Sequence record: MN882542 | Reading direction: 5' to 3' (one strand) | Length of the DNA stretch: 64,000 nucleotides | Source of the DNA: Escherichia phage JN01 | Shown: positions 1-23,780 of the stretch, piece by piece | Position numbering within the stretch: the first letter of the stretch is position 1 | Layout of the letters: each line of letters begins with the position of its first letter | Program-made: the position numbers and the translations under genes | The notes under the pieces: model-generated | Databases searched by the model: none | The model's input: only the letters and a program-made list of their open reading frames with translations | Told to the model about the DNA's origin: nothing

Positions 1-1180
1 GTTGCTTAAAAGTAGCTTAAAAGTTACGTAAATGCTAGCCCCCTTAACATTTTCTTAACAATTTCTTAACAAACCCTACATAGTTATGCTTTTAAGACAC
101 TTGTTAGCAACTTGTTAGCCCCTTGTTAAATCTCTGTTAAAACCACGTAAAAGCCTTGTAAGAGCCTTTGACATAGCCTTTAAAGCTCCTGTAAAGCCCT
201 ATAAAGAGCTTTCTACATAGTTGGTGTGTAATTACTAGAAAGAGACTAAAAAGAGCTTATAAGGAGCTATAAAGGGCTTTTAAGAGGGCTATTTAAAGGG
301 TCACTAAGAGGGAAAGGGAACGATAAGAAAAGAGATAGTGACCATGTTAATAGCTTGTTAAAAAGATTAAACACTTGTTAGGAACTTGTTAATTATCTTA
401 ACAAAATAACTCTTTAAAATTAACTTGTTAGCTCTTGTTAGTCATCTGTTAAGACTCTGTAAAGACCATGTATCAACTGTTAAGAAACTGTTAAGTTCTT
501 GTTAGTTCTGTTAAGAATCTGTTAAGACCTCTGAAGAGATGTTAAGAGGATGTAGTAGCTGTTAAGAGATTGTTAAGGATATTTTAAAATTCTGCAAAGG
601 GATGGTAAGGGAGCTGTTAAGGGCTACCAAGCAGATATACATCCTAATCAGATATTTTTCAGTTCCTTCAAAGACCCTAAAAAATGACTTGATAGTCCTA
701 TTTTATAAAAATTTTAAAATTCTGAATAATTACCTAGACAGTCTTCTAAAAATACAGGCATAAACAGGCTTATAAGATACCTTGTTAGTACCGTGTTAGA
801 CCTTGTGAGATAAGGTCTGTAAAGATATTCCTGTTAAGTTTGTTAAAACAGTCTATATAGAGGCTTAGTATTTCCTAGTGAACACCTATAGAGGGTATCA
901 TAGCTGACATAGAGATTAAGAGGTGTATAGGAGCTTCTAAGAGGGTGTAGAGGTATGGTTAAGGTGATTGTATAGGTTGTTAAGAAGGCTTGTTAGAAGA
1001 GTGTTTAGAAGGGCTATACAGAGGGGCTATTAAGACCACTAGATAGATACTAAGATACTATATAGTACTATATAACTATATAGAGAGTAAGATTAAGAAG
1101 GATGTTAAGAAGGGTAGATATTTTATTCACATATGATGGTGACCCAGAGGTTGGGACAACCGATAAAATTTTATAAAAAT
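1..1180. repeat. non-coding repeat-dense region; about 30 degenerate copies of YTGTTARR (core TGTTAAG), with reverse-orientation CTTAACA copies at 45-70, plus purine-rich TAAGAGG-type motifs and short TACTATA tandems near 1040-1085
   Basis: No ORF of 60 aa or more in any frame; stop codons are built into the repeat unit; motif copies visible by eye at 101-150, 347-585, 770-850, 960-1010. Confidence 0.8.
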
Positions 1181-1205
1181 TAAAAAGCCCCCAATTAAGG
1201 AGGCT
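1181..1205 (-). terminator. rho-independent terminator ending the leftward early block
   Basis: Minus-strand hairpin GCCUCC-UUAAUU-GGGGGC followed by a U run, immediately past the stop of the 1217 gene. Confidence 0.5.
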
Positions 1206-1216
1206 CTTAAGATATT

Positions 1217-1765
1217 TTAAACCAGTGTTTCCAGAACTGTTTTCAATGATGACTTGGTTGTCTGATAAAAATGAGTAAATCCATTGTTATTATCGAATAC
1301 CTGCATCATGATATCATCTCCCTTGATTGGGTACACTCGGATATCATAGTGAAAACCATTAAAGACACAAGAACCACTACAGAATCCTCTAAAGTCATCC
1401 ACTGAGATGTACTCTTCATGACCTGTGATTTTTATACAAACACCTTTACTCGGTCTCTTAGGGTTGATATCTTCCATCACAGACATACTCTGACCACCAA
1501 GAGACACTATAGTGACCACTTTACGGTTCTTCTGTCTAAAGTACATCTTAACTTTCTGTAAAGTGTCTTCATAGAACGGATAAGACTTCTCTACAAAGAT
1601 TCCTTCTAATGGCTCTTTACCGTTTACAATACCTCTGGTATGACGTACTGCAAAGATAATTTGTTGGAGCCAATCAAAATTTTCTTCGGATAGTGCTTCT
1701 CGAATATCATTCCAATCAAGGACTAGATAGTTACCTTCAACATCTTTTAAGTTATCTTTTTCCAT
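1217..1765 (-). CDS. hypothetical early protein
   Basis: ORF-track frame; track start at 1810 is TTG, so start moved to the internal ATG at 1765 just past the upstream stop. Confidence 0.5.
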   Translation of the reverse strand: MEKDNLKDVEGNYLVLDWNDIREALSEENFDWLQQIIFAVRHTRGIVNGKEPLEGIFVEKSYPFYEDTLQKVKMYFRQKNRKVVTIVSLGGQSMSVMEDINPKRPSKGVCIKITGHEEYISVDDFRGFCSGSCVFNGFHYDIRVYPIKGDDIMMQVFDNNNGFTHFYQTTKSSLKTVLETLV

Positions 1766-1778
1766 ATCTATCACACCA

Positions 1779-2243
1779 TTATCGTAAAACTTGGTAATCT
1801 GGTACTGCAAACTTGTTGTTGTTGTTTTTAATGAGGTCTTCTTTTGTTACAAAGAATGTAAGCCCACATAAGTGTGTATAGTGGCTACCATACTCAAATA
1901 CTTTAAGTAAGTATTCGCCATCATCATAAACATGCTCTACTACACCTTTTGCAACAATCTTTCCAGTCTTGAAATCTTTAAGAGGGTATACATTACCAAC
2001 TTTAGGAACTGTTTTCATCTCAGGTTCTTTTAGCTTCTCACCAGCTTCTACATCACCTAGTAAGTGAGAACTATCAAAAGCTACATGTTGCATATAAGCT
2101 TCTGAGCATTCCCAGATAAAGCAACTTACAAGAACCTTAGCAGCATGTCTTGAACAATTCAGCTTATCACAAATCTCTTTGTACATTTCATCTTTAGTTG
2201 AGTTGTCAAGCATTGCTTTTTGGACTACTTCTTTAATTTTCAT
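1779..2243 (-). CDS. hypothetical protein
   Basis: ATG start preceded by GGAGAG Shine-Dalgarno; tightly packed in a co-directional block. Confidence 0.6.
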   Translation of the reverse strand: MKIKEVVQKAMLDNSTKDEMYKEICDKLNCSRHAAKVLVSCFIWECSEAYMQHVAFDSSHLLGDVEAGEKLKEPEMKTVPKVGNVYPLKDFKTGKIVAKGVVEHVYDDGEYLLKVFEYGSHYTHLCGLTFFVTKEDLIKNNNNKFAVPDYQVLR

Positions 2244-2661
2244 AAGCTCTCCGAATAACCCTATTAAGCATCTCTAAAGTCAGCTTTCCAGATTCTAAAT
2301 GTGGCATGATGAGTTTTAAAGCTTTTTCAACATCATGCACAACATCTATTATACCTTCTGCATAGGCTTCTACAAGGATATCTTTTACATTTTGTGATTT
2401 ACCTTTTTGTGGTATCACTAGACGCATATCAAACTCATTTGCTTGAGGATGGTTCTTACCTTGCCAATAACCATCTTTGTTAAAGCTGATGTAGTCACCG
2501 TGGTAAAAGTGTACACCATTAGCTTTAAACTTCTCCAGCACAAGGCATTGAATTGGGTATTCAGTATTCCACTCCCTGACTCCTATAACCTTCACTGTTG
2601 CGATGTACTCCTGTGTTTTTGCATCTATGATGTCAAGTTCTTGACCAGCTATGATTTGCAT
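2233..2661 (-). CDS. hypothetical protein
   Basis: 142 aa ORF with ATG start, overlapping its neighbour as in an operon. Confidence 0.6.
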   Translation of the reverse strand: MQIIAGQELDIIDAKTQEYIATVKVIGVREWNTEYPIQCLVLEKFKANGVHFYHGDYISFNKDGYWQGKNHPQANEFDMRLVIPQKGKSQNVKDILVEAYAEGIIDVVHDVEKALKLIMPHLESGKLTLEMLNRVIRRAYEN

Positions 2662-2715
2662 ATTCGCTACCTTCTAAGTTCCTACAAAGGGGCTATCAAG
2701 TAACCCCTCAAGTGA

Positions 2716-2940
2716 CTACTCAGACTTTTCAGTCTTCTTATCGGATTTCTTACTAGTCTTCTTCTCAGCTTTCTGCTCAGGTTCCTTCTCAGAAGTTACC
2801 TTGATAACCATATCAAGAAGCTCTGATAAGTCACTCTTCAGCAGAGTAACAGGCTGCTCATTGTAGAAGTTTTTGTCAAGATAAACTTTAAACTCTTCTA
2901 TAGAAGGAAATCCAAAAATTGGTACAGGTGTCTTAATCAT
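2716..2940 (-). CDS. hypothetical protein with lysine-rich C-terminus
   Basis: 74 aa ORF with ATG start; its start overlaps the stop of the small ORF upstream (TAATG). Confidence 0.5.
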   Translation of the reverse strand: MIKTPVPIFGFPSIEEFKVYLDKNFYNEQPVTLLKSDLSELLDMVIKVTSEKEPEQKAEKKTSKKSDKKTEKSE

Positions 2941-3035
2941 TACTTAGTTTCTCCATAAGCATCTTTCAAGATTGCCTTGTTAATCATTTCAGCGATTGCA
3001 AAACGAACACATACAGCTATAATTGTAGGTTGCAT
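2940..3035 (-). CDS. small hydrophobic protein (31 aa)
   Basis: ATG start; stop overlaps the next start as TAATG; translation MQPTIIAVCVRFAIAEMINKAILKDAYGETK; below the ORF-track size cut-off. Confidence 0.3.
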   Translation of the reverse strand: MQPTIIAVCVRFAIAEMINKAILKDAYGETK

Positions 3036-3520
3036 TCTTTACTTACCTCTTCAAGTTTAACCTCAGAGTCCTTAAGACGTTTCTTATGAACTCTAAACCT
3101 CATTAGTGCGATGATGATACCAACTAAAGGAACAGCATACAAGTACCAAACATCATATACCTTTGCAGTAATCTGTGTAATGGTCAAGTCTTGAGCTATG
3201 GAACTGATTGCTGATACTGCCAGTAATGTTGCTAGGAAAAACGCTAGTATCATTACCGTGCTTAAACAACCTCTGGCATGGTGTTCATGCTTAATGCACT
3301 TATTCTTTTCGTCAACAACTCTGTTGTAGTCATTTGTAAAGTCTCTGTAGAAAGCTTTCAAGTATTCTTTATTGTAGCCTTCAAAGCAACCTGTACCGTA
3401 CCAATAATCACCACCAAAATGTGCTATGATACCAGTATCCCCATTTGGTTTAGTTACTCTCAAAGATGTGTGATGACGAGTATCTTGATAGTCTATTTTG
3501 TATCTTTCTTCGTAAATCAT
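3017..3520 (-). CDS. membrane protein (C-terminal transmembrane helices)
   Basis: Track start is GTG; ATG at 3520 has a GAGAGGG Shine-Dalgarno and ATGA overlap with the upstream stop; hydrophobic stretch ILAFFLATLLAVSAI. Confidence 0.55.
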   Translation of the reverse strand: MIYEERYKIDYQDTRHHTSLRVTKPNGDTGIIAHFGGDYWYGTGCFEGYNKEYLKAFYRDFTNDYNRVVDEKNKCIKHEHHARGCLSTVMILAFFLATLLAVSAISSIAQDLTITQITAKVYDVWYLYAVPLVGIIIALMRFRVHKKRLKDSEVKLEEVSKECNLQL

Positions 3521-3735
3521 TTTCCAATCCCTCTCAATCGTTTGTTCCACTCAAGGTCAACAAGTCTTTGTAGGACTTTCCCTCTAGGTGTTACACCTTT
3601 TAAATCTGCATCATAACAATGGTAAAAGTCACCTTCAGCGTGTTTACCATAGCATTTTCTGATGTTCTGACTCCTACGATACTGCTCTAATAGGGATAGT
3701 CTGTAGTAATCTTCAACTGTAGTTAATTTTTTCAT
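3517..3735 (-). CDS. hypothetical protein
   Basis: 72 aa ORF with ATG start, in operon context. Confidence 0.5.
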   Translation of the reverse strand: MKKLTTVEDYYRLSLLEQYRRSQNIRKCYGKHAEGDFYHCYDADLKGVTPRGKVLQRLVDLEWNKRLRGIGK

Positions 3736-3818
3736 TCTTTCACCACGTATCTTCTCAAGAAACTAAAAAGGGAACTACCTCTCGATAGCTCCCATCATAG
3801 TTAATATTGTATACTCGG

Positions 3819-4400
3819 TCAAGAGTATTTTTTAGGCAGTAATGCACTACGCTTGTTACTCTCTTCACTCAATAGTGCGATAAATTCATCACCTTTCCCT
3901 TTCCACGGACTGAATGTAGGGATGTGCTCTCTGATAGCCTCAATCACTGTTTTCAGGGCATTGTTCTTTAACCACCAATCAGACACTGCCGAAGCTACAA
4001 TGTAGTAAGCACCATCATCTGTGAAGATTGGCTCAGAGATACATGGTGAAATCATAGTGGTAATGATAGAACCATTATTCATGTAGTATGTTCTTTTTTC
4101 AACCTTATCAAGAAGCTTATGAAGGTCTGCAAAGAGACTTACCACCTCTTTATGGTCAATATCTTTTTCAAGGTTTGCCCTGTATTTCAATAGTGCAGCA
4201 TCAACCTCTTTATCATTGAATTTGAAGTATTGGACTTCTTCATTCACACATACACTGATATTGTTGGTGTTTATCGTCAATTTGCACAGTTTGACTGGAG
4301 AGTTGATGTTGGTCTGGAAAAGTGCTACACAGCCTTCTACATTCCCGAAATGCTTGACTAGTGTAACTTCTGGTTGGATGTGCTCATGCTCTTCTGACAT
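3819..4400 (-). CDS. hypothetical protein
   Basis: 193 aa ORF with ATG start. Confidence 0.6.
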   Translation of the reverse strand: MSEEHEHIQPEVTLVKHFGNVEGCVALFQTNINSPVKLCKLTINTNNISVCVNEEVQYFKFNDKEVDAALLKYRANLEKDIDHKEVVSLFADLHKLLDKVEKRTYYMNNGSIITTMISPCISEPIFTDDGAYYIVASAVSDWWLKNNALKTVIEAIREHIPTFSPWKGKGDEFIALLSEESNKRSALLPKKYS

Positions 4401-4744
4401 TACAGTTTCCTCATTAAATACTTTTTAAGTTGTGTGTTAGGTTTCTCAAAAACTTCTATAGAAGATATCTTGACAGATTCACCACGCATACCAGTGTGTT
4501 TGAAAATATAGTACTCCAACATACCTATGTATTTTGCTGGTAAGTCATACTTGACGTACACTGTTACAGAATCTTCAAATTCAACAACCTTTGTACCATC
4601 TTTGTAGTTAAACTCTTTAGGATGGTTGTAATTGTCGATGTCGTACATTAAAAAGAGTCTTTTCCGTTGCATGTCAAGCTTATTGGTTAAAGACTCTTTG
4701 ATATCTGAGAAGTTTTTATAGACTATGACATGGAGCTTACTCAT
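4400..4744 (-). CDS. hypothetical protein
   Basis: 114 aa ORF; stop overlaps the downstream start (TAATG). Confidence 0.6.
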   Translation of the reverse strand: MSKLHVIVYKNFSDIKESLTNKLDMQRKRLFLMYDIDNYNHPKEFNYKDGTKVVEFEDSVTVYVKYDLPAKYIGMLEYYIFKHTGMRGESVKISSIEVFEKPNTQLKKYLMRKL

Positions 4745-5030
4745 CGTTAAACTCTCTGACGAAGAAATAGTTGACTTTGTTATTACCTACCATAAGGTCA
4801 AAGCAGGTGTTCTCAAAAGGTTTGTTGTAGGCATCATATGAAGTGTACGTATCAGCTACTTGTTTAGTATTGAGCTTTTTACTTGATGGATTTAAGAGGC
4901 CACCATACAGTTTCTTGATAGCCTCTTCTACAACAGACCAGATGATTTCGTCAGTAATTTCTTCGTACAGGTCAAGTTCACGCTCTAGTGAGAAGTCACA
5001 AATAGGGAAAATAACCTGTACTTTACTCAT
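4737..5030 (-). CDS. hypothetical acidic protein
   Basis: 97 aa ORF with ATG start; D/E-rich. Confidence 0.55.
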   Translation of the reverse strand: MSKVQVIFPICDFSLERELDLYEEITDEIIWSVVEEAIKKLYGGLLNPSSKKLNTKQVADTYTSYDAYNKPFENTCFDLMVGNNKVNYFFVREFNDE

Positions 5031-5425
5031 TAACGGATAACCTGTGTGACTTGAATTGCTTCAGTTACGGACAATTCACCTACTTTCTCTTCTTTGATAA
5101 AAGTGAAGGTGAGTTCAACAGGTTCTTCTTCTTCTTGCTCAACTGGAATGCCGTTAAGCTCATCAAAGATTGATTGAGTTGTCCAATCTTCTCCACCATC
5201 TGGGTAGTGGATTGCGTAAAGTGGAAACTCTAAATTATACCAAGCAAAAACAGGGCAACCATCTGCATCATCTCGACATCTGTGGAGATATGTGTTTGTG
5301 CCTTCAAAATGCAAATGGAGATTACCATTCTTCTCAAAGAGAAGAGCATCTTGCAGGTCTAGTTCCTCATTTTTGCTGTAACGGCTGACATCAACTTTAA
5401 CGTGAATATGACTGTTATTATTCAT
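5030..5425 (-). CDS. hypothetical acidic protein
   Basis: 131 aa ORF with ATG start; contains an EQEEEEPVE acidic stretch. Confidence 0.6.
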   Translation of the reverse strand: MNNNSHIHVKVDVSRYSKNEELDLQDALLFEKNGNLHLHFEGTNTYLHRCRDDADGCPVFAWYNLEFPLYAIHYPDGGEDWTTQSIFDELNGIPVEQEEEEPVELTFTFIKEEKVGELSVTEAIQVTQVIR

Positions 5426-5816
5426 AAAAACCTCTCTCTGCTTGTTCGATTTTTGCTCTTAAAATTTCGCAATGTTGTAAATGGTAGTTAGCTTCTTGTT
5501 CATGTGTTGCTAACTGCCTTTCAAGAACAGTTTTATAATAACCTGCAAGTTGCTCTCTTGTCAATGGGTTCTCCGAAATAATATCGAGACCACTTTCACC
5601 TAGAGTATTAAACTGCCCATTTTCATTTACATGGTAAGTTTCAAACTTGAATAAACCGTTATTAGCAGCCTCAATAGGTGAGAGTTCAACCAACTCAACG
5701 GTGAACATTGTATGCACTCTATCACCAACTGTAACAACGTTACTTCCAATGATGCGTACAAGCGAACCATTACGTGTGTACTTAAAAGTTCCAAAGTCAC
5801 TGGCCCAAAGCTTCAT
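5418..5816 (-). CDS. hypothetical protein
   Basis: 132 aa ORF with ATG start and strong AAGGAG Shine-Dalgarno. Confidence 0.6.
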   Translation of the reverse strand: MKLWASDFGTFKYTRNGSLVRIIGSNVVTVGDRVHTMFTVELVELSPIEAANNGLFKFETYHVNENGQFNTLGESGLDIISENPLTREQLAGYYKTVLERQLATHEQEANYHLQHCEILRAKIEQAERGFYE

Positions 5817-5831
5817 AATTTTCTCCTTAGA

Positions 5832-5857
5832 AAATAAAAAAGGCTCCCGAAGGAGCC
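5832..5857 (-). terminator. rho-independent terminator downstream of the endolysin gene
   Basis: Hairpin GGCTCC-CGAA-GGAGCC with a U run on the transcribed (minus) strand. Confidence 0.5.
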
Positions 5858-5867
5858 TATGAAGATA

Positions 5868-6332
5868 TTACTTTGGATATACACTGTCAAGATAAATGTC
5901 AGCTTCCATTCTACGTCTGTTTTTCAGGCCGTTTGAAGTGACCTTCTTACCCTTGACTGTAACCTTGTTCCACCACTGCATAGCTTCTGCACAACCTACC
6001 TTATTACCAGCATTGTGGCGCTTGATAAATGTAGAATCCTGCATAGCTGTGATACCGATGTTGTATGTTTCACTTACAAGTGCATCGAACTCATTCTGAG
6101 AGGTTGGAACCTTGATAGCTTTATTCACTGCTGCAACGAACTTCTCAACATCTGCAAGAAGATACTGTTCAGCCTGTTCAGCAGTAATTTTCATACCCAG
6201 CTTAACAGGTTTTCCGTCAATACGGATTGTACCATACCCGATTGTTGGGATTCCGGCAGAGTCTTCGTAAGCCTCTAACTTCAGACCTTCAAAGAACTTG
6301 ATAGCTTCTAAACCTTTTCTTGAGAGTTGCAT
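5868..6332 (-). CDS. endolysin, phage lysozyme (glycoside hydrolase family 24, P22 gp19-like)
   Basis: Motifs EGLKLEAYEDSAGIPTIGYGT and QNEFDALVSETYNIG match phage lysozyme family signatures. Confidence 0.85.
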   Translation of the reverse strand: MQLSRKGLEAIKFFEGLKLEAYEDSAGIPTIGYGTIRIDGKPVKLGMKITAEQAEQYLLADVEKFVAAVNKAIKVPTSQNEFDALVSETYNIGITAMQDSTFIKRHNAGNKVGCAEAMQWWNKVTVKGKKVTSNGLKNRRRMEADIYLDSVYPK

Positions 6333-7216
6333 TATGCCTCCCCTGTTGGGTTAACTGTAACTGTTGCTGCATTAGATGTTACAGAGCCACCTGCGCCAGT
6401 CACTACACAGGTATAGCTTCCTGCATCAGCAGTAGTTGCACCTTCTTTGGTGTAAGTTGCAGCAGTTGCGTCTGGGATGACTTCCTCACCTTTCTTCCAC
6501 TGGTAACCTGTTGCACCGGTTGCCACAACATTCAGCGTTAAGGTTTCACCTTCAGTGATTTCTTGATTTGCTGGCTGTTGAGTGATAACTGGCAAAGCAT
6601 TCACAGTTACTGTTGCTGCATCTGAGGTGACACTTGTTCCACCATCTCCAGAGACAACACAAGTGTATGAACCAGCATCAGAAGGTGCTACGGATGGTTT
6701 TGTGTAAGTTGCAGAAGTGGCACTAGGAATGTCCTCACCATCTTTCTTCCACTGATAACCAGTGGCATTAGACGCAACAACACTCAGAGTAAGTGTCCCA
6801 CCTTCATTGACTGTTTGGTTTGTTGGTTGCTGAGTGATTGATGGTGGTGTGATGGCATCTTTCAACTTAGCATTCAGCATTGAGAAAGGTTTAACTCTTG
6901 CCAGCCATTCACAGTAAATTGTGTCAACATCTTTACCGTTGATGATTGCATACTGTAAATCCATGAAGAAATCAGCAGTTCTCATCTGTGCACCAACACT
7001 GTAAAGGAGTTCATCACTAAAAGGAACTTTGTAGTCTGGTTTGTAGTCAAACTTCTTAACTTCTGCGATGTCAGCTTCAGGCCAATATGAGCTATAGGTG
7101 AGTGGTAAAATAGCTTCTTGATATGTTCTAAAATCATATCTCTTACCAGCCTTTACATTTGCGATGAAACCCTTCACAAATTCTTTGAAGTCTGGGTAAG
7201 TCTTTGCTTTAATCAT
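6332..7216 (-). CDS. protein with two tandem Ig-like domains and an N-terminal domain paralogous to the next gene
   Basis: C-terminal repeats TLTLSVVASNATGYQWKKDGEDI...GSYTCVVSG and TLTLNVVATGATGYQWKKGEEVI...GSYTCVVTG. Confidence 0.7.
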   Translation of the reverse strand: MIKAKTYPDFKEFVKGFIANVKAGKRYDFRTYQEAILPLTYSSYWPEADIAEVKKFDYKPDYKVPFSDELLYSVGAQMRTADFFMDLQYAIINGKDVDTIYCEWLARVKPFSMLNAKLKDAITPPSITQQPTNQTVNEGGTLTLSVVASNATGYQWKKDGEDIPSATSATYTKPSVAPSDAGSYTCVVSGDGGTSVTSDAATVTVNALPVITQQPANQEITEGETLTLNVVATGATGYQWKKGEEVIPDATAATYTKEGATTADAGSYTCVVTGAGGSVTSNAATVTVNPTGEA

Positions 7217-7584
7217 TTCTTTTTAGCCTCTAAACGTGCGTTTAATCTAAAATAGCCTTTATGTTGTGGAGACACATCACCAACAACGATACCTTCAACT
7301 TTATAACCTTTACCGATTACATACTGGATATCCATAAGAAATGTACCAAGTCCTACAATGTGGAACATTGGGTATAATAACTTATCTGAATCTGGGAGAT
7401 TAATATCTGGGTTGTAGGTAGGCTGTTTACTAGTAGGTGTAATATCTTCTTCAGGCCATTTACTTAGTCTCCATGTCAAAGGTGTTGGGATAACATCATT
7501 AAGATTGTACCTCCCACCATTCTCCACGGAATGGATATAGGATTGTAGGAAGCAATAAAAGTCTTTTGCACTCTTAGCTTTCAT
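7213..7584 (-). CDS. hypothetical protein, paralog of the N-terminal domain of the 6332-7216 protein
   Basis: Shared motifs KAK..DF, GKRY/GGRY, LLY, F-MD-QY; ATG start with AAGGA Shine-Dalgarno. Confidence 0.6.
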   Translation of the reverse strand: MKAKSAKDFYCFLQSYIHSVENGGRYNLNDVIPTPLTWRLSKWPEEDITPTSKQPTYNPDINLPDSDKLLYPMFHIVGLGTFLMDIQYVIGKGYKVEGIVVGDVSPQHKGYFRLNARLEAKKK

Positions 7585-7599
7585 TAAATATCCTTATAA

Positions 7600-7624
7600 A
7601 TAGATAAAGGGGCATTAGCCCCTG
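7600..7624 (-). terminator. possible terminator hairpin
   Basis: AGGGGC-ATTA-GCCCCT hairpin between convergent-free gene ends; flanking T-rich sequence is weak. Confidence 0.35.
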
Positions 7625-7631
7625 TTTATAC

Positions 7632-8222
7632 TTAAGCTTTGGTCTTAAGTAGGTTCTTAAGTTTTTTGAGATTCATGCTCTCGTCAAACTTAAAACCAAA
7701 TCCATTGACATAATCAATGAACTCGGATTTCTTACTAAGTGATAGCGCGTAACTCATATCAAAGTTATTACTGGTTTCTGCGTCTGGACTAGAGTTCACA
7801 TCAAATGAAATTTCTGTAGGCTCTTGCTTGCTACTTCTCATATTATCAATTAATAGGCATGTATAGTTCGCTGGATAGAAGTTTGCACTGCCATCAACAT
7901 ACCCATACTTATTGTTGTGAATAAGGTTTGAAAATACCTTAAGAAATGTTTCTGAGTCGTGGCATACAAGTTTGAATTGACTGCACTCTCCAAGAGCCAC
8001 TAAAGAGTAAGGGCTTTCACTATCAATGTCGTAGTTTGGATTTGATGTTGTAACCGTCACACGCATCAAGTTATTAGCGATGGTCTTCTGTTTAAAAGAA
8101 TTTGGGACATAGTGAAGACCTCTATCACACTGATTAACTAACTCTTTAAGTAGGTCATTTGCATAAGGTGAATTAATTGATACAGAGCCATCACTATTGT
8201 AATTAAAACTTACTGTTAACAT
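7632..8222 (-). CDS. hypothetical protein
   Basis: 196 aa ORF with ATG start. Confidence 0.6.
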   Translation of the reverse strand: MLTVSFNYNSDGSVSINSPYANDLLKELVNQCDRGLHYVPNSFKQKTIANNLMRVTVTTSNPNYDIDSESPYSLVALGECSQFKLVCHDSETFLKVFSNLIHNNKYGYVDGSANFYPANYTCLLIDNMRSSKQEPTEISFDVNSSPDAETSNNFDMSYALSLSKKSEFIDYVNGFGFKFDESMNLKKLKNLLKTKA

Positions 8223-8449
8223 TTTTCAGTTCTCCTGCGGTTTATAATTTTGCTGCAATAGAGAAACGAAGTAAACTCACTGGAAGAAACCATTAAGTGT
8301 TGTTCACTAGACTGAGCCATTGCCCTGAAATACATTCCAGTCAAAGCATCGTAGTGACTATTCTTTCCAATTGAGGTTATATAGCCATGACTCTTTGCAG
8401 TTTTATATAAATCTATAATATCTGCGATTTCTAATTGGGAACTACACAT
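8216..8449 (-). CDS. hypothetical protein
   Basis: 77 aa ORF with ATG start and AGAGGA Shine-Dalgarno. Confidence 0.5.
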   Translation of the reverse strand: MCSSQLEIADIIDLYKTAKSHGYITSIGKNSHYDALTGMYFRAMAQSSEQHLMVSSSEFTSFLYCSKIINRRRTEKC

Positions 8450-8592
8450 AGATAATCCTCTTGTCTTCTGTAATTTTGAAAGAACAGGTACAGACCAATT
8501 TCAGAGGATGAATAGTAGAGCAACTCTACCCTTTTTGATTCCTTACAGTGATTGGTATTTTTACCTTTCTTCGGGTTGTTTGATTTTCTCAT
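8431..8592 (-). CDS. small basic protein (first gene of the leftward block)
   Basis: Track start is TTG; ATG at 8592 has an AAGGAG Shine-Dalgarno; 19 nt overlap with the next gene leaves this uncertain. Confidence 0.3.
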   Translation of the reverse strand: MRKSNNPKKGKNTNHCKESKRVELLYYSSSEIGLYLFFQNYRRQEDYLCVVPN

Positions 8593-8637
8593 TAAGTCTC
8601 CTTTGTAGAACAAGGCAGACCTACAGCTTTAAGTAAG

Positions 8638-8667
8638 ATGGTACAGTAATCCATACAACAAGTCAAG
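8638..8667 (-). promoter_or_regulatory. candidate sigma70-type promoter for the leftward block
   Basis: Minus strand reads TTGACT, 17 nt spacer, TACCAT. Confidence 0.35.
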
Positions 8668-8691
8668 AACTATTGCAAGTTAAAAAAGTTG

Positions 8692-8732
8692 TTGACAAAG
8701 GACTTGACAAGGTGTAGGCTTATAAATACTTA
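8692..8732 (+). promoter_or_regulatory. tandem TTGACA element (TTGACA-N6-TTGACAAGGTGT) followed by TATAAAT
   Basis: Almost the same element recurs at 49848-49870; sits in the divergent intergenic region upstream of the 8842 gene. Confidence 0.4.
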
Positions 8733-8774
8733 GAAGATAACTTAAAAGGTTCCTCTAAAAAGGCTATTTAAACA

Positions 8775-8794
8775 GATATCTTTCTGGATATCTA
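8775..8794. promoter_or_regulatory. inverted repeat AGATATC-N6-GATATCT (operator-like)
   Basis: Perfect 7 bp arms in the divergent regulatory region. Confidence 0.3.
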
Positions 8795-8841
8795 TCTTTT
8801 ATCTTAAAAGCCTTTTAAGAGGTCTTATAAGAGGCATACCA

Positions 8842-15529: not shown

Positions 15530-15605
15530 AGTCCAAGTAGCTTATATGGTTAAAGCGCGTGTCTGAAAAACATGAGAAGAGGGTTCAAATCCCACTGGAC
15601 TACCA
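15530..15605 (+). tRNA. tRNA-Phe (anticodon GAA)
   Basis: Anticodon arm CGTGT-CTGAAAA-ACATG; T-loop GGGTTCAAATCCC; CCA encoded. Confidence 0.65.
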
Positions 15606-15621
15606 ATTTCAAAGGTGCTTA

Positions 15622-16356
15622 ATGAAAGAGATGACAGAACAAGGTAAGGAGATTTTTAGTCTCTTAAAAACCGGTAGAGGGTTTTCTAATCCCCTTATTA
15701 CTGGTGCAGCAGTTCTCGGTGGAACCGTAGCTGCCTCTACATCACTTGTAAGCTCTATTAGCTCTGTAGCAGACCCTACAATAAAGGATAAACTTGTTGC
15801 TGCTGGACTTACAACAGTTCTGCTTAATAGCTTTACAACGAGTCTGACAAGCACTACATCAACTACTAAGACACTGACAGATTACGGTCAAAAGTCCATT
15901 GATGAGTTTTCATCACGTATGCAGGTAGCAAAAGGGTATTCCAATGTTATGGGTGCAGCAGGAGAGCAAGTTGGTTGTACACCATTTAGTGGTATTATGG
16001 GTGTTGCTACAGAGTACGGTCAAAAAGCTATTGACACAATTAACAGTACACTAGACGGTGTTAATGATGTATTAAGTGACTTACAAGATGCTATTGATAA
16101 AGGTCTTGATACTGTTTCTGATTTAGCTAACCAAGCTGTTAGCAAGATTAATGAAGGTATCTCGAAGATTACAGCTTATGCAGATGAAGTTGTGCAGATG
16201 ATTGAAGAAGAAGCTGCCCTTATTGCAGAGTACCTTAAAACGAATATCAATGGGTTCTTAGCAGGTATCTTACCAGACTGGTTTGATGATGCTTGTAAAA
16301 CTGGTGTAATTGATACTATTGCAACACCAGAAATGAAGAACGCATTACAGAAATAA
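15622..16356 (+). CDS. hypothetical Ser/Thr-rich protein with N-terminal hydrophobic segment, flanked by tRNAs
   Basis: Track start overlaps tRNA-Phe, so start moved to ATG 15622; stop abuts tRNA-Ser; hydrophobic LITGAAVLGGTVAASTSLV. Confidence 0.5.
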   Translation: MKEMTEQGKEIFSLLKTGRGFSNPLITGAAVLGGTVAASTSLVSSISSVADPTIKDKLVAAGLTTVLLNSFTTSLTSTTSTTKTLTDYGQKSIDEFSSRMQVAKGYSNVMGAAGEQVGCTPFSGIMGVATEYGQKAIDTINSTLDGVNDVLSDLQDAIDKGLDTVSDLANQAVSKINEGISKITAYADEVVQMIEEEAALIAEYLKTNINGFLAGILPDWFDDACKTGVIDTIATPEMKNALQK

Positions 16357-16357
16357 T

Positions 16358-16450
16358 GGAAGATTAACCCTAAAAGGTAAGGGAGCAGTTTGCTAAACTG
16401 CCAGTAGCTGAGAAATCGGTGTACCAGTTCAAGTCTGGTATCTTCCTCCA
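16358..16450 (+). tRNA. tRNA-Ser (anticodon GCT), long variable arm
   Basis: 93 nt; perfect acceptor GGAAGAT/ATCTTCC; anticodon arm GCAGT-TTGCTAA-ACTGC; CCA encoded. Confidence 0.75.
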
Positions 16451-16454
16451 ATTT

Positions 16455-16530
16455 GAATCCGTGACAGAAATGGCTATGTACCTGTCTGCAAAACAGGTTT
16501 ATAAGGGTTCGAGTCCCTTCGGATTCTCCA
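16455..16530 (+). tRNA. tRNA-Cys (anticodon GCA)
   Basis: Perfect acceptor GAATCCG/CGGATTC; perfect anticodon stem CCTGT/ACAGG with loop CTGCAAA; CCA encoded. Confidence 0.8.
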
Positions 16531-22673: not shown

Positions 22674-23780
22674 ATGTTGACTAATTCTGAAAAAAGCAGA
22701 TTTTTCCTTGCTGACCTGACTGGTGAAGTCCAGTCTATCCCAAATACTTATGGGTATATTTCCAACTTAGGTCTGTTCCGTTCAGCACCAATCACCCAAA
22801 CTACTTTCCTTATGGACTTGACTGATTGGGATGTTAGCTTGCTTGATGCGGTAGACCGTGATAGCCGTAAAGCAGAGACTAGCGCACCTGAGCGTGTTCG
22901 TCAAATCAGCTTCCCAATGATGTACTTCAAAGAAGTTGAAAGCATTACTCCTGATGAGATTCAGGGTGTACGTCAGCCAGGCACTGCAAACGAACTGACT
23001 ACTGAAGCTGTAGTACGTGCTAAGAAGCTGATGAAGATTCGTACCAAGTTCGATATTACTCGTGAGTTCCTGTTTATGCAAGCTCTGAAGGGTAAAGTTG
23101 TTGATGCTCGTGGTACTCTGTACGCTGACCTGTACAAGCAGTTCGACGTTGAGAAGAAGACTGTTTACTTCGACCTTGCCAACCCTAATGCTGACATCGA
23201 CGCTTCTATCGAAGAACTGCGTATGCACATGGAAGACGAAGCTAAGACTGGCACTGTAATCAACGGCGAAGAAATTCACGTAGTTGTTGACCGTGTATTC
23301 TTCAGCAAACTGGTTAAGCATCCTAAGATTCGTGACGCTTATCTTGCACAGCAGACTCCGCTGGCTTGGCAACAGATTACTGGTTCTCTGAGAACTGGTG
23401 GTACTGACGGCGTTCAGGCTCATATGAACACCTTCTACTACGGTGGTGTTAAGTTTGTCCAGTACAACGGTAAGTTCAAAGACAAGCGTGGTAAGGTTCA
23501 CACTCTGGTGGGCATTGATGGTGTAGCAGCAACTGTTGGTGTTGGTCATGCTTTCCCTAACGTATCTATGCTGGGTGAAGCAAACAACATCTTCGAAGTT
23601 GCATATGGTCCATGTCCTAAGATGGGTTATGCAAATACACTTGGTCAGGAACTGTACGTATTCGAATACGAAAAAGACCGTGACGAAGGTATTGACTTCG
23701 AAGCTCACTCTTACATGCTGCCATACTGTACTCGTCCTCAGTTGCTGGTAGATGTTCGCGCTGACGCTCAAGGTGGCTGA
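22674..23780 (+). CDS. major capsid protein (lambda gpE-like family, tentative)
   Basis: 368 aa; codon usage typical of a highly expressed gene; position after protease and decoration genes. Confidence 0.8.
   Translation: MLTNSEKSRFFLADLTGEVQSIPNTYGYISNLGLFRSAPITQTTFLMDLTDWDVSLLDAVDRDSRKAETSAPERVRQISFPMMYFKEVESITPDEIQGVRQPGTANELTTEAVVRAKKLMKIRTKFDITREFLFMQALKGKVVDARGTLYADLYKQFDVEKKTVYFDLANPNADIDASIEELRMHMEDEAKTGTVINGEEIHVVVDRVFFSKLVKHPKIRDAYLAQQTPLAWQQITGSLRTGGTDGVQAHMNTFYYGGVKFVQYNGKFKDKRGKVHTLVGIDGVAATVGVGHAFPNVSMLGEANNIFEVAYGPCPKMGYANTLGQELYVFEYEKDRDEGIDFEAHSYMLPYCTRPQLLVDVRADAQGG

What the first reader, a model, noticed from the sequence alone, without database searches (positions are those of the whole stretch)
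6332..7584. Ig-domain protein and paralogous partner beside the endolysin, outside the structural module
The 294 aa protein ends in two tandem Ig-like domains (shared GYQWKK and GSYTCVV motifs), and its N-terminal domain is paralogous to the adjacent 123 aa protein. Phage Ig-like domains usually decorate capsids or tails, but this pair is in the leftward early/lysis block about 10 kb from the capsid genes. It could be a virion decoration protein encoded away from the morphogenesis genes or a cell-surface binding accessory.
Basis: seen in the sequence. Interest (0 to 1): 0.5.

Follow-up and report, generated by a model that had tools for sequence, protein, structure and literature searches.

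The report
Known capsid decoration gene plus Ig-less paralogue
The Ig-domain protein is the already described Hoc-like protein that sits at the centre of capsid hexamers of Felix O1-type phages. The small gene next to it is an uncharacterised copy of its capsid-binding domain alone, made late in infection but so far not found in virions.

Summary
The window is a Felixounavirus genome, about 97% identical to phages PHB11 and BPS17L1.

**The 294-aa protein (6332-7216, minus strand)**
- It has an N-terminal domain of about 120 aa and two tandem Ig domains that are 67% identical to each other.
- The N-terminal domain is 36% identical (E = 1e-16) to the adjacent 123-aa protein (7213-7584, minus strand).
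- It is the orthologue of Bas63 Hex-Dec (PDB 9NCF chain S, E = 1.6e-243), Sf14 gp20 (9C2D/9C3A) and Felix O1 gp36.
- These relatives were shown by cryo-EM (2025) and virion mass spectrometry (2010, 2025) to be a monomeric Hoc-like decoration protein. It plugs the centres of the pentamer-adjacent hexamers of the T=9 capsid.
The "tail protein" label in databases is a known mis-annotation.

**The 123-aa paralogue**
- It is the only open item. I found no description of it in the papers I could search.
- It is predicted to have the same capsid-binding fold, is under purifying selection (dN/dS 0.12), and is transcribed late together with Hex-Dec.
- It lacks the two arginines that anchor Sf14 gp20 to the capsid.
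- It is absent from the published Felix O1 and VpaE1 virion proteomes and from both cryo-EM models.
- It is a decayed pseudogene in one viable sublineage.
- Its function is inferred only.

The parts
6332..7216 (-). Hex-Dec (Hoc-like hexamer-centre capsid decoration protein), 294 aa. Orthologue of Felix O1 gp36, Bas63 bas63_0124 and Sf14 gp20.
   Evidence: ORF. PDB matches: 9ncf_S E = 1.6e-243, 9c2d_S E = 1e-165. phrog_3995 at 2.3e-169. Literature.
6851..7216 (-). Capsid-binding domain (CapBD), residues 1 to about 122 of Hex-Dec.
   Evidence: Aligns residue for residue with the modelled parts of 9ncf_S and 9c2d_S. The Sf14 paper places the capsid-binding domain in the first 118 aa, anchored by Arg79 and Arg107; both are present here. 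dN/dS is 0.04.
6593..6844 (-). Ig-like domain 1 (residues 125-208).
   Evidence: Pfam Ig_3/Ig_2/I-set. 89-93% identical to the first Ig repeat of the 3- and 4-Ig alleles.
6335..6592 (-). Ig-like domain 2 (residues 209-294).
   Evidence: Pfam I-set at residues 209-283. 91-92% identical to the last Ig repeat of the 3- and 4-Ig alleles.
7213..7584 (-). CapBD-only paralogue, 123 aa. Equals Felix O1 ORF37, Sf14 gp21, bas63_0125 and VpaE1 ORF40c; phrog_4463, function unknown.
   Evidence: ORF. Paralogy. Fold. dN/dS 0.12. Orthologues.
5868..6332 (-). Endolysin (154 aa). Last gene of the three-gene unit; its ATG overlaps the Hex-Dec stop codon.
   Evidence: Pfam Phage_lysozyme 1.6e-40. Junction sequence.
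7608..7623 (-). GC-rich hairpin between the upstream 196-aa gene and the paralogue. Equivalent to Felix O1 terminator t38 and marks the upstream edge of the unit.
   Evidence: Felix O1 Table 2.
5841..5858 (-). Intrinsic terminator just after the endolysin. Equivalent to Felix O1 t35 and marks the downstream edge of the unit.

Best explanation
**The three-gene unit.** The region is a compact unit bounded by two hairpins: 123-aa paralogue, then 294-aa Hex-Dec, then endolysin. Start and stop codons overlap, so the genes are probably translationally coupled. In Felix O1 the first two genes peak late in infection.

**Hex-Dec (shown for the orthologues).** The 294-aa protein is the Felixounavirus Hex-Dec protein.
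- Its N-terminal domain of about 120 aa binds as a monomer in the centre of the 60 pentamer-adjacent hexamers of the T=9 capsid.
- In Sf14 the binding uses salt bridges from Arg79 and Arg107 to Asp221 of the capsid protein.
- The two Ig domains project outward as a short fibre.
- The role of the fibre (adhesion to surfaces or mucus, particle aggregation, as for T4 Hoc) is inferred by analogy only.

**The paralogue (shown here).** The 123-aa protein is an old duplicate of the capsid-binding domain without any display domain. It is a real gene under purifying selection, and it has the same predicted fold.

**The paralogue (inferred).**
- It is not a stable stoichiometric virion component.
- It is not an obligatory helper of Hex-Dec.
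- The face that holds the anchoring arginines has been remodelled and then conserved.
- My best guess, at about 40%, is a late, capsid-directed factor with a different binding specificity. It would act transiently or at low copy number, for example on unexpanded procapsid hexamers or on the 20 hexamers on the threefold axes, and would be lost from purified mature particles.
- A neofunctionalised role unrelated to the capsid is nearly as likely, at about 30%.
For: **Identity of Hex-Dec**
- PDB matches: 9ncf_S E = 1.6e-243 and 9c2d_S E = 1e-165, both over residues 1-290.
- Cryo-EM descriptions in PMC12609058 and PMC11821841.
- Felix O1 gp36 detected in virions: 31.6 kDa, 14 peptides. ORF36 is the 885-nt gene beside the lysin.
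- Arg79 and Arg107 are conserved in the window protein.

**The unit**
- Hairpins at 7623-7608 and 5858-5841 correspond to Felix O1 t38 and t35.
- ORF36 and ORF37 both peak at 60 min, together with portal and tail-fibre genes.
- ATGA and TAATG overlaps join the genes.

**The paralogue**
- 36% identity, E = 1e-16.
- The AF2 model matches only the two solved capsid-binding domains.
- dN/dS is 0.12 over 31 sequences, against 0.04 for the Hex-Dec CapBD.
- It is kept in Felixounavirus, Mooglevirus and a more diverged metagenomic lineage, always in the same position.
- 41 positions are conserved within each paralogue but differ between them. They are concentrated around the Arg79 and Arg107 equivalents, which are Gly and Gln in the paralogue.
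- It is not among the 17 Felix O1 or 22 VpaE1 virion proteins, although it would give 6 usable tryptic peptides.
- Bas63 and Sf14 both encode it intact, yet no density was reported on the other hexamers.
- It is a decayed pseudogene, with Hex-Dec intact, in 19 phage records.
Against: **Hex-Dec.** Nothing of weight. This particular phage has not been imaged or analysed by mass spectrometry, so virion presence rests on orthologues that are about 90-95% identical in the capsid-binding domain.

**The paralogue**
- All functional statements are indirect.
- Non-detection by mass spectrometry is negative evidence. The VpaE1 peptide table was only an image, so I relied on the main text. The Sf14 table lists only modelled or structural products.
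- The two anchoring arginines are not universal in the wider family: distant Ig-bearing members also lack Arg79. Their absence therefore does not prove loss of capsid binding.
- Loss in one sublineage shows only that the gene is dispensable.
- The 'transient procapsid binder' idea has no direct support.
Confidence: 0.9

Rival explanations
1. The 294-aa protein is a tail protein, as most GenBank records and PHROG 3995 call it.
For: Annotated 'tail protein' in most hits. phrog_3995 is labelled 'tail protein'. The Felix O1 paper called gp36 the 'major tail protein'.
Against: Two cryo-EM structures place the orthologue at capsid hexamer centres. The Bas63 authors state explicitly that the tail annotation is wrong. 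The sheath and tube proteins are other gene products.
Confidence: 0.02
2. The 123-aa paralogue is a second capsid decoration protein. It would fill the centres of the 20 hexamers on the icosahedral threefold axes, which Hex-Dec does not occupy. The two paralogues would then divide the two hexamer classes of the T=9 shell between them.
For: - It has the same fold as the capsid-binding domain.
- It is expressed late together with Hex-Dec.
- The Sf14 paper attributes gp20's hexamer selectivity to the geometry of Asp221 relative to Arg79 and Arg107. These are exactly the positions that are changed and then conserved in the paralogue.
- It has a basic pI of 8.9, which would suit an Asp-lined pocket.
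Against: - Both cryo-EM studies report no density on those hexamers, although both phages encode the paralogue intact.
- It is not in the Felix O1 or VpaE1 virion proteomes, which did detect proteins of 9.7-14 kDa and 22 proteins in all.
- One viable sublineage has lost it.
Confidence: 0.15
3. The paralogue keeps the fold but has acquired a function unrelated to the capsid, for example binding another phage or host protein late in infection.
For: - The anchoring arginines are replaced, and K-P-[FY] has become K-G-Y.
- It evolves three times faster at the protein level than the CapBD of Hex-Dec.
- It is absent from virions.
- It is dispensable.
Against: - It is strictly linked and translationally coupled to Hex-Dec in every lineage that has it.
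- Its timing is late, with the structural genes.
- No other domain or motif suggests a different activity: there are no Pfam hits.
Confidence: 0.3
4. The paralogue is a chaperone for Hex-Dec or a competitor that tunes its occupancy. It would either mask the Hex-Dec binding domain or compete for the same hexamer sites.
For: ATGA translational coupling would give co-production at a fixed ratio. The two share a fold.
Against: - Hex-Dec stays intact and under strong constraint in the sublineage where the paralogue has decayed. It also works alone in Kolesnikvirus and more distant relatives.
- The cryo-EM density at the occupied hexamers was modelled as Hex-Dec with strong local density.
- The loss of the anchoring arginines argues against effective competition for the same site.
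Confidence: 0.1
5. The paralogue is a functionless duplicate on its way to being lost.
For: It is pseudogenised in 19 records. One isolate (SP3_SHan-2021) has fused the two genes by a microhomology deletion.
Against: - dN/dS is 0.12.
- The ORF is intact, with its own Shine-Dalgarno sequence, in about 230 of 252 records.
- It is retained in lineages so diverged that their paralogues are only about 48% identical.
Confidence: 0.05

Closest known systems
Bas63 Hex-Dec (PDB 9NCF chain S), Sf14 gp20 (PDB 9C2D/9C3A chain S), Felix O1 gp36
   Same: - It is a direct orthologue. The capsid-binding domain is nearly identical, and Arg79 and Arg107 are kept.
- The Ig type is the same.
- The gene position is the same, between the paralogue and the endolysin.
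- Felix O1 gp36 has the same length (294 aa) and the same two Ig domains.
   Different: Only the number of Ig repeats differs: 2 here, 4 in Bas63, 3 in Sf14. Alleles with 1 to 4 repeats occur among close relatives. The two repeats here correspond to the first and last repeats of the longer alleles.
[quoted passage not shown]
   Same: - It works the same way: a monomer at the hexamer centre with a string of Ig-like domains projecting outward.
- The Ig part hits PHROGs labelled 'Hoc-like head decoration', phrog_4069 at 1.9e-28 and phrog_2973 at 1.4e-27.
   Different: - The domain order is reversed: Hoc has its capsid-binding domain at the C-terminus.
- The capsid-binding domain is larger, topologically distinct and pseudo-C2 symmetric.
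- The sequence similarity is confined to the Ig region.
- As far as I know (own knowledge, not tested here), T4 has no paralogue consisting of the capsid-binding domain alone.
T5 pb10 decoration protein (PDB 5LXK, 8ZVI)
   Same: - The architecture and orientation are the same: N-terminal capsid-binding domain and C-terminal Ig domain, as a monomer at hexamer centres.
- The Ig domain matches 5lxk_A at E = 7.6e-13 over residues 133-207.
   Different: No detectable similarity between the capsid-binding domains. pb10 has one Ig domain and occupies all 120 hexamers of a T=13 capsid, as described in the PMC5292684 abstract.
Single-copy CapBD proteins of Kolesnikvirus (Erwinia phage phiEa21-4 group) and metagenomic Ounavirinae-like phages
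   Same: The N-terminal capsid-binding domain is homologous (profile E from 4e-9 to 2.5e-4). In the Kolesnikvirus record and in the P0103 contigs the gene sits just upstream of the endolysin; the short contigs carrying P0104 end at the gene, and the gene downstream of P0101 has no family hit on record.
   Different: - They carry other display modules: Big_2, a Big-like domain, one I-set domain, or only a Lys/Ser-rich tail.
- None of them has a stand-alone paralogue next to it.

Membership tests
Ounavirinae Hex-Dec / gp20 (hexamer-centre decoration protein), for the 294-aa protein | N-terminal capsid-binding domain homologous to the modelled domain of 9NCF_S / 9C2D_S | tested here: met
   phmmer E = 1.6e-243 and 1e-165, aligned from residue 1.
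Ounavirinae Hex-Dec / gp20 (hexamer-centre decoration protein), for the 294-aa protein | Anchoring residues Arg79 and Arg107, which form salt bridges to capsid-protein Asp221 in Sf14 | tested here: met
   Both arginines are present at the aligned positions.
Ounavirinae Hex-Dec / gp20 (hexamer-centre decoration protein), for the 294-aa protein | One to four C-terminal tandem Ig-like domains | tested here: met
   Two domains, at residues 125-208 and 209-294. Pfam Ig_3 1.9e-22 and I-set 1.7e-15.
Ounavirinae Hex-Dec / gp20 (hexamer-centre decoration protein), for the 294-aa protein | Conserved gene position: paralogue (or a ~190-aa gene), then Hex-Dec, then endolysin | tested here: met
Ounavirinae Hex-Dec / gp20 (hexamer-centre decoration protein), for the 294-aa protein | Physically present in virions, bound as a monomer to pentamer-adjacent hexamers | not testable with these tools
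   Shown for the orthologues only: Felix O1 gp36 by mass spectrometry; Sf14 gp20 by mass spectrometry and cryo-EM; Bas63 by cryo-EM.
T4 Hoc family, for the 294-aa protein | Hoc-type C-terminal capsid-binding domain with N-terminal Ig domains | tested here: not met
   - The domain order is reversed.
- Similarity to Hoc-like PHROGs covers only residues 121-292, the Ig part.
- The Bas63 paper reports a topologically distinct capsid-binding domain.
- So it works like Hoc but is not a member by its anchor domain.
Hex-Dec CapBD fold family, for the 123-aa paralogue | Sequence and fold homology to the capsid-binding domain | tested here: met
   - BLASTP E = 1e-16.
- phmmer against 9ncf_S E = 3.1e-12.
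- AF2 model TM 0.72 and 0.71 to 9c2d_S and 9ncf_S, with no other significant PDB hit.
- It shares the family-invariant residues F12, G23, Y71, F82, D85, Q87 and N115.
Capsid decoration protein (Hex-Dec-like), for the 123-aa paralogue | A display (Ig-like) module | tested here: not met
   The protein ends after the capsid-binding fold with EAKKK. No Pfam hit.
Capsid decoration protein (Hex-Dec-like), for the 123-aa paralogue | Anchoring Arg79 and Arg107 equivalents | tested here: not met
   They are Gly and Gln in all Felixounavirus and Mooglevirus paralogues, and K-P-F has become K-G-Y. Caveat: distant Ig-bearing family members also lack Arg79.
Capsid decoration protein (Hex-Dec-like), for the 123-aa paralogue | Presence in purified virions | not testable with these tools
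   - The published data are negative: it is not in the Felix O1 or VpaE1 virion proteomes.
- It is not mentioned or modelled in the Sf14 or Bas63 studies.
- The raw Sf14 spectra (MassIVE MSV000096931) could not be searched here.

The most novel reading that the evidence does not exclude
The 123-aa protein is a second, display-less protein that binds capsid hexamer centres, and its specificity has diverged from that of Hex-Dec. Two forms of this reading remain open:
- It recognises the hexamer class or conformation that Hex-Dec rejects (the threefold-axis hexamers, or the skewed hexamers of the unexpanded procapsid). The phage would then use two paralogous pseudo-twofold plugs to read out the two hexamer environments of a T=9 lattice.
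- It acts as an external, transient assembly factor that is shed on maturation.

Neither form has been described for a Hoc-like decoration system.
Probability: 0.3. Interest if true: 0.55.

Novelty: already known. Interest (0 to 1): 0.27.

Why it matters
**For annotation.** This window's "tail protein" should be called a Hoc-like hexamer decoration protein. Its place beside the endolysin is normal for the whole subfamily.

**For biology.** Little is new about the Ig protein itself. The modest open point is the capsid-binding-domain-only paralogue.
- It is conserved, expressed late and apparently not in the virion.
- The two recent structural papers that I could read and search do not mention it.
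- If it does bind capsids, it would offer a handle on how a monomer distinguishes chemically identical hexamers in different lattice environments.
- It would also be a natural display-free anchor to compare with the Ig-bearing one for phage-display engineering.
- Nature has already provided a null (the REP5 lineage) and a lobe-swap chimera (SP3_SHan-2021) to work with.

Tried and rejected
- **Sigma-70 promoters.** The scan of 1-9400 found 27 sites against 25.4 expected by chance. There was no convincing promoter in front of the unit, so no promoter is claimed.
- **Internal repeat.** I tested for a sequence-level repeat behind the reported pseudo-C2 symmetry of the capsid-binding domain. hhalign of lobe 1 against lobe 2 gave probability below 5%, so none is detectable.
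- **Word-indexed protein searches.** They returned only close relatives. The full profile search was needed to reach distant family members.
- **Further virion proteomes.**
  - The wV8 paper analysed only the tail fibre.
  - STGO-35-1 turned out to be an unrelated siphovirus.
  - The VpaE1 peptide table is held only as an image.
  - The Bas63 supplements are not held.
  - The Sf14 supplement mentions 'gp21' only for SPP1.
- **Wrong accession.** A guessed accession for Bas63 was wrong. The right record, MZ501086, was found by tblastn.
- **Rejected readings.**
  - A frameshift fusion of the two ORFs: they have separate Shine-Dalgarno sequences and starts, and an ATGA overlap.
  - A secreted or membrane role for the paralogue: read by eye, the sequence shows no hydrophobic N-terminal or membrane-spanning segment; no predictor was run.
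Full report
**1. What is in the sequence**

The finding's coordinates match two minus-strand ORFs exactly: 294 aa at 6332-7216 and 123 aa at 7213-7584. They overlap by ATGA. The stop of the 294-aa ORF overlaps the start of a 154-aa endolysin at 5868-6332 (TAATG). The endolysin matches Pfam Phage_lysozyme at 1.6e-40.

A GC-rich hairpin lies 5' of the 123-aa gene at 7623-7608. A strong intrinsic terminator follows the endolysin at 5858-5841. The three genes therefore form a compact unit.

The window is a Felixounavirus genome. Region 5800-8300 is 97% identical to Escherichia phage PHB11 and Salmonella phage BPS17L1, and 249 phage records match it.

**2. Check of the observation**

- *Ig domains.* Residues 125-208 and 209-294 are two Ig domains: Pfam Ig_3 1.9e-22, Ig_2 2.9e-20, I-set 1.7e-15, each with two matched stretches. 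They are 67% identical to each other, and each carries GYQWKK and GSYTCVV.
- *Paralogy.* Residues 1 to about 120 are 36% identical to the 123-aa protein, BLASTP E = 1e-16. PHROG cross-hits confirm it: the paralogue against phrog_3995 gives 4e-15, and Hex-Dec against phrog_4463 gives 5e-16.
- *Position.* The pair is on the leftward strand, separated from the rightward morphogenesis genes by 25 tRNA genes at 10875-16530. The major capsid protein gene starts at 22674.

**3. What the 294-aa protein is**

It matches two solved chains from end to end: 9NCF chain S (E = 1.6e-243) and 9C2D/9C3A chain S (E = 1e-165).

- 9NCF is the icosahedral capsid of phage JohannRWettstein (Bas63), and 9C2D is the Sf14 capsid.
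- The Bas63 paper (PMC12609058) calls the protein Hex-Dec. [quoted passage not shown] It binds only hexamers at facet edges, and four predicted Ig domains were not resolved. The authors note that it was wrongly annotated as a tail protein in most Felixounavirus genomes, and that species carry one to four Ig domains.
- The Sf14 paper (PMC11821841) identifies gp20 as the Hoc-like decoration protein and detected it by mass spectrometry of particles. The binding domain is in the first 118 residues, anchored by Arg79 and Arg107 to Asp221 of three capsid-protein subunits. It binds only pentamer-proximal hexamers.
- In Felix O1, ORF35 is the lysin, ORF36 is the 885-nt "tail protein" and ORF37 is a 372-nt hypothetical gene. 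Gp36 (31.6 kDa, 14 peptides) was found in CsCl-purified virions in 2010 and called the "major tail protein". That is probably where the mis-annotation began.

The window protein keeps Arg79 and Arg107. Its two Ig repeats correspond to the first and last repeats of the 3- and 4-Ig alleles. Alleles of 210, 294, 377 and 461 aa occur among close relatives.

The Ig protein is therefore a known capsid decoration protein.

**4. The position beside the endolysin is ancestral**

The same order recurs in:
- Sf14 (gp21-gp20-gp19);
- Bas63 (bas63_0125-0124-0123);
- Felix O1 (ORF37-36-35);
- all 27 IMG/VR loci, apart from two that end before the Hex-Dec gene;
- a diverged 87-kb metagenomic contig.

A profile of the CapBD, searched against 1.84 billion representative proteins, found only 14 proteins. 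The distant ones are single-copy. They carry CapBD plus Big_2 (Kolesnikvirus Erwinia phages), CapBD plus a Big-like or I-set domain, or CapBD plus a Lys/Ser-rich tail. In the Kolesnikvirus record and in the contigs that carry the tail-only member (P0103), the gene lies directly upstream of a lysozyme gene. The P0103 and Big-like (P0104) contigs also keep the upstream neighbourhood (a DUF2828 gene and a DUF5681 gene on the opposite strand, then a ~185-aa gene); the short P0104 contigs end at the CapBD gene, and the gene after the I-set member (P0101) has no family hit on record. The CapBD is thus a small, lineage-restricted anchor that has carried different display modules.

**5. The 123-aa paralogue**

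*Shown here*
- It has the CapBD fold. An AF2 model with an 18-sequence alignment has pLDDT 77 and pTM 0.75. Its only significant PDB matches are 9c2d_S (TM 0.72) and 9ncf_S (TM 0.71). A shallower model gave the same result.
- It is a functional gene. Nei-Gojobori dN/dS over 31 sequences is 0.12. The comparison values are 0.04 for the Hex-Dec CapBD, 0.14 for Ig1 and 0.08 for the endolysin.
- It is old. Stand-alone copies with shared diagnostic motifs (FYCFLQ, VGLGxFLMD, GY..LNA.LE) occur in Felixounavirus, Mooglevirus and a lineage only about 48% identical to them (P0097). They always sit directly upstream of Hex-Dec. Kolesnikvirus and the more distant relatives have a single CapBD gene.
- Its divergence from Hex-Dec is patterned. 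35 positions are conserved and identical in both paralogues. 41 are conserved within each but differ between them, and these are concentrated in the second lobe: the start of helix 2 and the β-hairpin loop.
- That region holds the Sf14 anchoring residues. Arg79 aligns with Gly and Arg107 with Gln, and the K-P-[FY] motif of all Ig-bearing members becomes K-G-Y.

*From the literature*
- Felix O1 ORF36 and ORF37 both peak at 60 min, together with portal and tail-fibre genes. The lysin peaks at 25 min. Terminators t38 and t35 bracket ORF37-36-35.
- ORF37 is not among the 17 Felix O1 virion proteins, although proteins of 9.7-14 kDa were detected.
- In VpaE1, 22 virion proteins were identified against a database of all ORFs longer than 50 codons. 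The only ones not already seen in Felix O1 were gp54, gp58 and gp68, so ORF40c (the paralogue) was not detected.
- The paralogue would give six tryptic peptides of 7-30 residues.
- Neither structural paper mentions a paralogue or Sf14 gp21. Both report no density on the remaining hexamers, although both phages encode the gene intact.

*Natural variants*
- Nineteen records share a decayed copy. They are REP5-12, Shigella phages Tf and Z31, SP116 (two records), mio, fBSPA4, fKMPT1, P54, EcF-vB and two CECAV phages.
- In these the start codon is changed to ATA, the Shine-Dalgarno sequence is lost, there are frameshifts, and about 223 nt are deleted internally. Hex-Dec remains intact.
- One isolate, SP3_SHan-2021, carries a single chimeric gene. 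Residues 1 to about 50 come from the paralogue and the rest from Hex-Dec, joined at a TGGCCTGAAG...GATAT microhomology.

**6. Interpretation of the paralogue**

- The gene is functional but dispensable for plaque formation.
- It is not an obligatory Hex-Dec chaperone, because Hex-Dec persists without it.
- It is not a stoichiometric component of purified virions.
- Late co-expression, tight linkage and the conserved remodelling of the capsid-facing region suggest that it still acts on the capsid, but on a different target state. This would be transient or low-copy binding, for example to procapsid hexamers or to the threefold-axis hexamers. I put this at about 40%.
- A role unrelated to the capsid is about 30%.
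- A stable plug on the threefold hexamers is about 15%, because both cryo-EM studies and two virion proteomes argue against it.
- A chaperone or competitor role is about 10%, and no function about 5%.
- All of these are inferences. None is tested.

**7. Comparison with known systems**

- *Membership.* The 294-aa protein belongs to the Ounavirinae Hex-Dec/gp20 family. Every sequence-testable feature was met.
- *T4 Hoc.* It works like Hoc, as a monomer at the hexamer centre with an outward Ig fibre. It is not a Hoc-family member by its anchor domain: the domain order is reversed, the fold is distinct, and similarity is confined to the Ig region.
- *T5 pb10.* It shares pb10's orientation and Ig type (5lxk_A E = 7.6e-13 over residues 133-207), but not its anchor domain.
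- *The paralogue.* It belongs to the CapBD fold family. It fails the decoration-protein criteria that could be tested: it has no display module and no anchoring arginines.

**8. Verdict**

The finding is real and correctly interpreted, but the main item is already known. Interest is low overall. The undescribed CapBD-only paralogue is a modest, tractable open question.

Noticed in passing
L003 (Salmonella phage SP3_SHan-2021, MW296865.1) 2501-3379; corresponds to window 6332-7584: A single 292-aa chimeric gene replaces the pair. The first ~50 residues (lobe 1) come from the 123-aa paralogue and the rest from Hex-Dec. The junction is at a TGGCCTGAAG...GATAT microhomology. This amounts to a natural lobe-swap of the capsid-binding domain. 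It is a single record, so a sequencing or assembly artefact cannot be fully excluded.
   Followed up: partly
L004 (Escherichia phage REP5) 2305-2498, and 18 other records: One Felixounavirus sublineage, isolated on E. coli, Shigella and Salmonella, shares a decayed pseudogene of the 123-aa paralogue. The start codon is ATA, the Shine-Dalgarno sequence is lost, there are frameshifts, and about 223 nt are deleted. Hex-Dec is intact. These phages are natural null mutants.
   Followed up: yes
window 6335-6844, and loci L006-L032: Hex-Dec length varies among near-identical genomes: 210, 294, 377 and 461 aa, corresponding to 1-4 Ig repeats. The 2-repeat allele in this window matches the first and last repeats of the longer alleles. 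This suggests gain and loss of internal repeats by recombination between the tandem copies.
   Followed up: partly
window 7632-8222 (-) and 8216-8449 (-): The 196-aa (phrog_4034) and 77-aa (phrog_5064) genes just upstream have no known function. They are nevertheless syntenic with the CapBD gene even in very distant relatives, as a 183-205-aa gene directly before it. In one distant relative the homologue carries a faint Pfam Phage_Inh_N hit.
   Followed up: no
window 9294-10709 (+) and 8842-9213 (+): A 471-aa ORF and a 123-aa ORF are transcribed divergently from the unit. Their counterparts in relatives are annotated as a DUF2828/TROVE-like 'RNA-binding protein' and a DUF5681 protein. A 25-gene tRNA cluster (10875-16530) follows directly. 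A Ro-like RNA-binding protein next to a large tRNA array may deserve a separate look.
   Followed up: no
window 1-1216: The first ~1.2 kb of the window has no ORF of 60 aa or more, and the first 2 kb has the lowest G+C in the window (0.345). It corresponds to the ~1.6-kb gap without annotated genes between Felix O1 ORF23 and ORF24.
   Followed up: no
Felix O1 gp23 (literature; the gene lies upstream of the window start): A 9.7-kDa hypothetical protein, also encoded outside the morphogenesis module, was detected in Felix O1 virions but not in VpaE1 virions. It is a second possible virion protein encoded away from the structural genes, with conflicting evidence.
   Followed up: no
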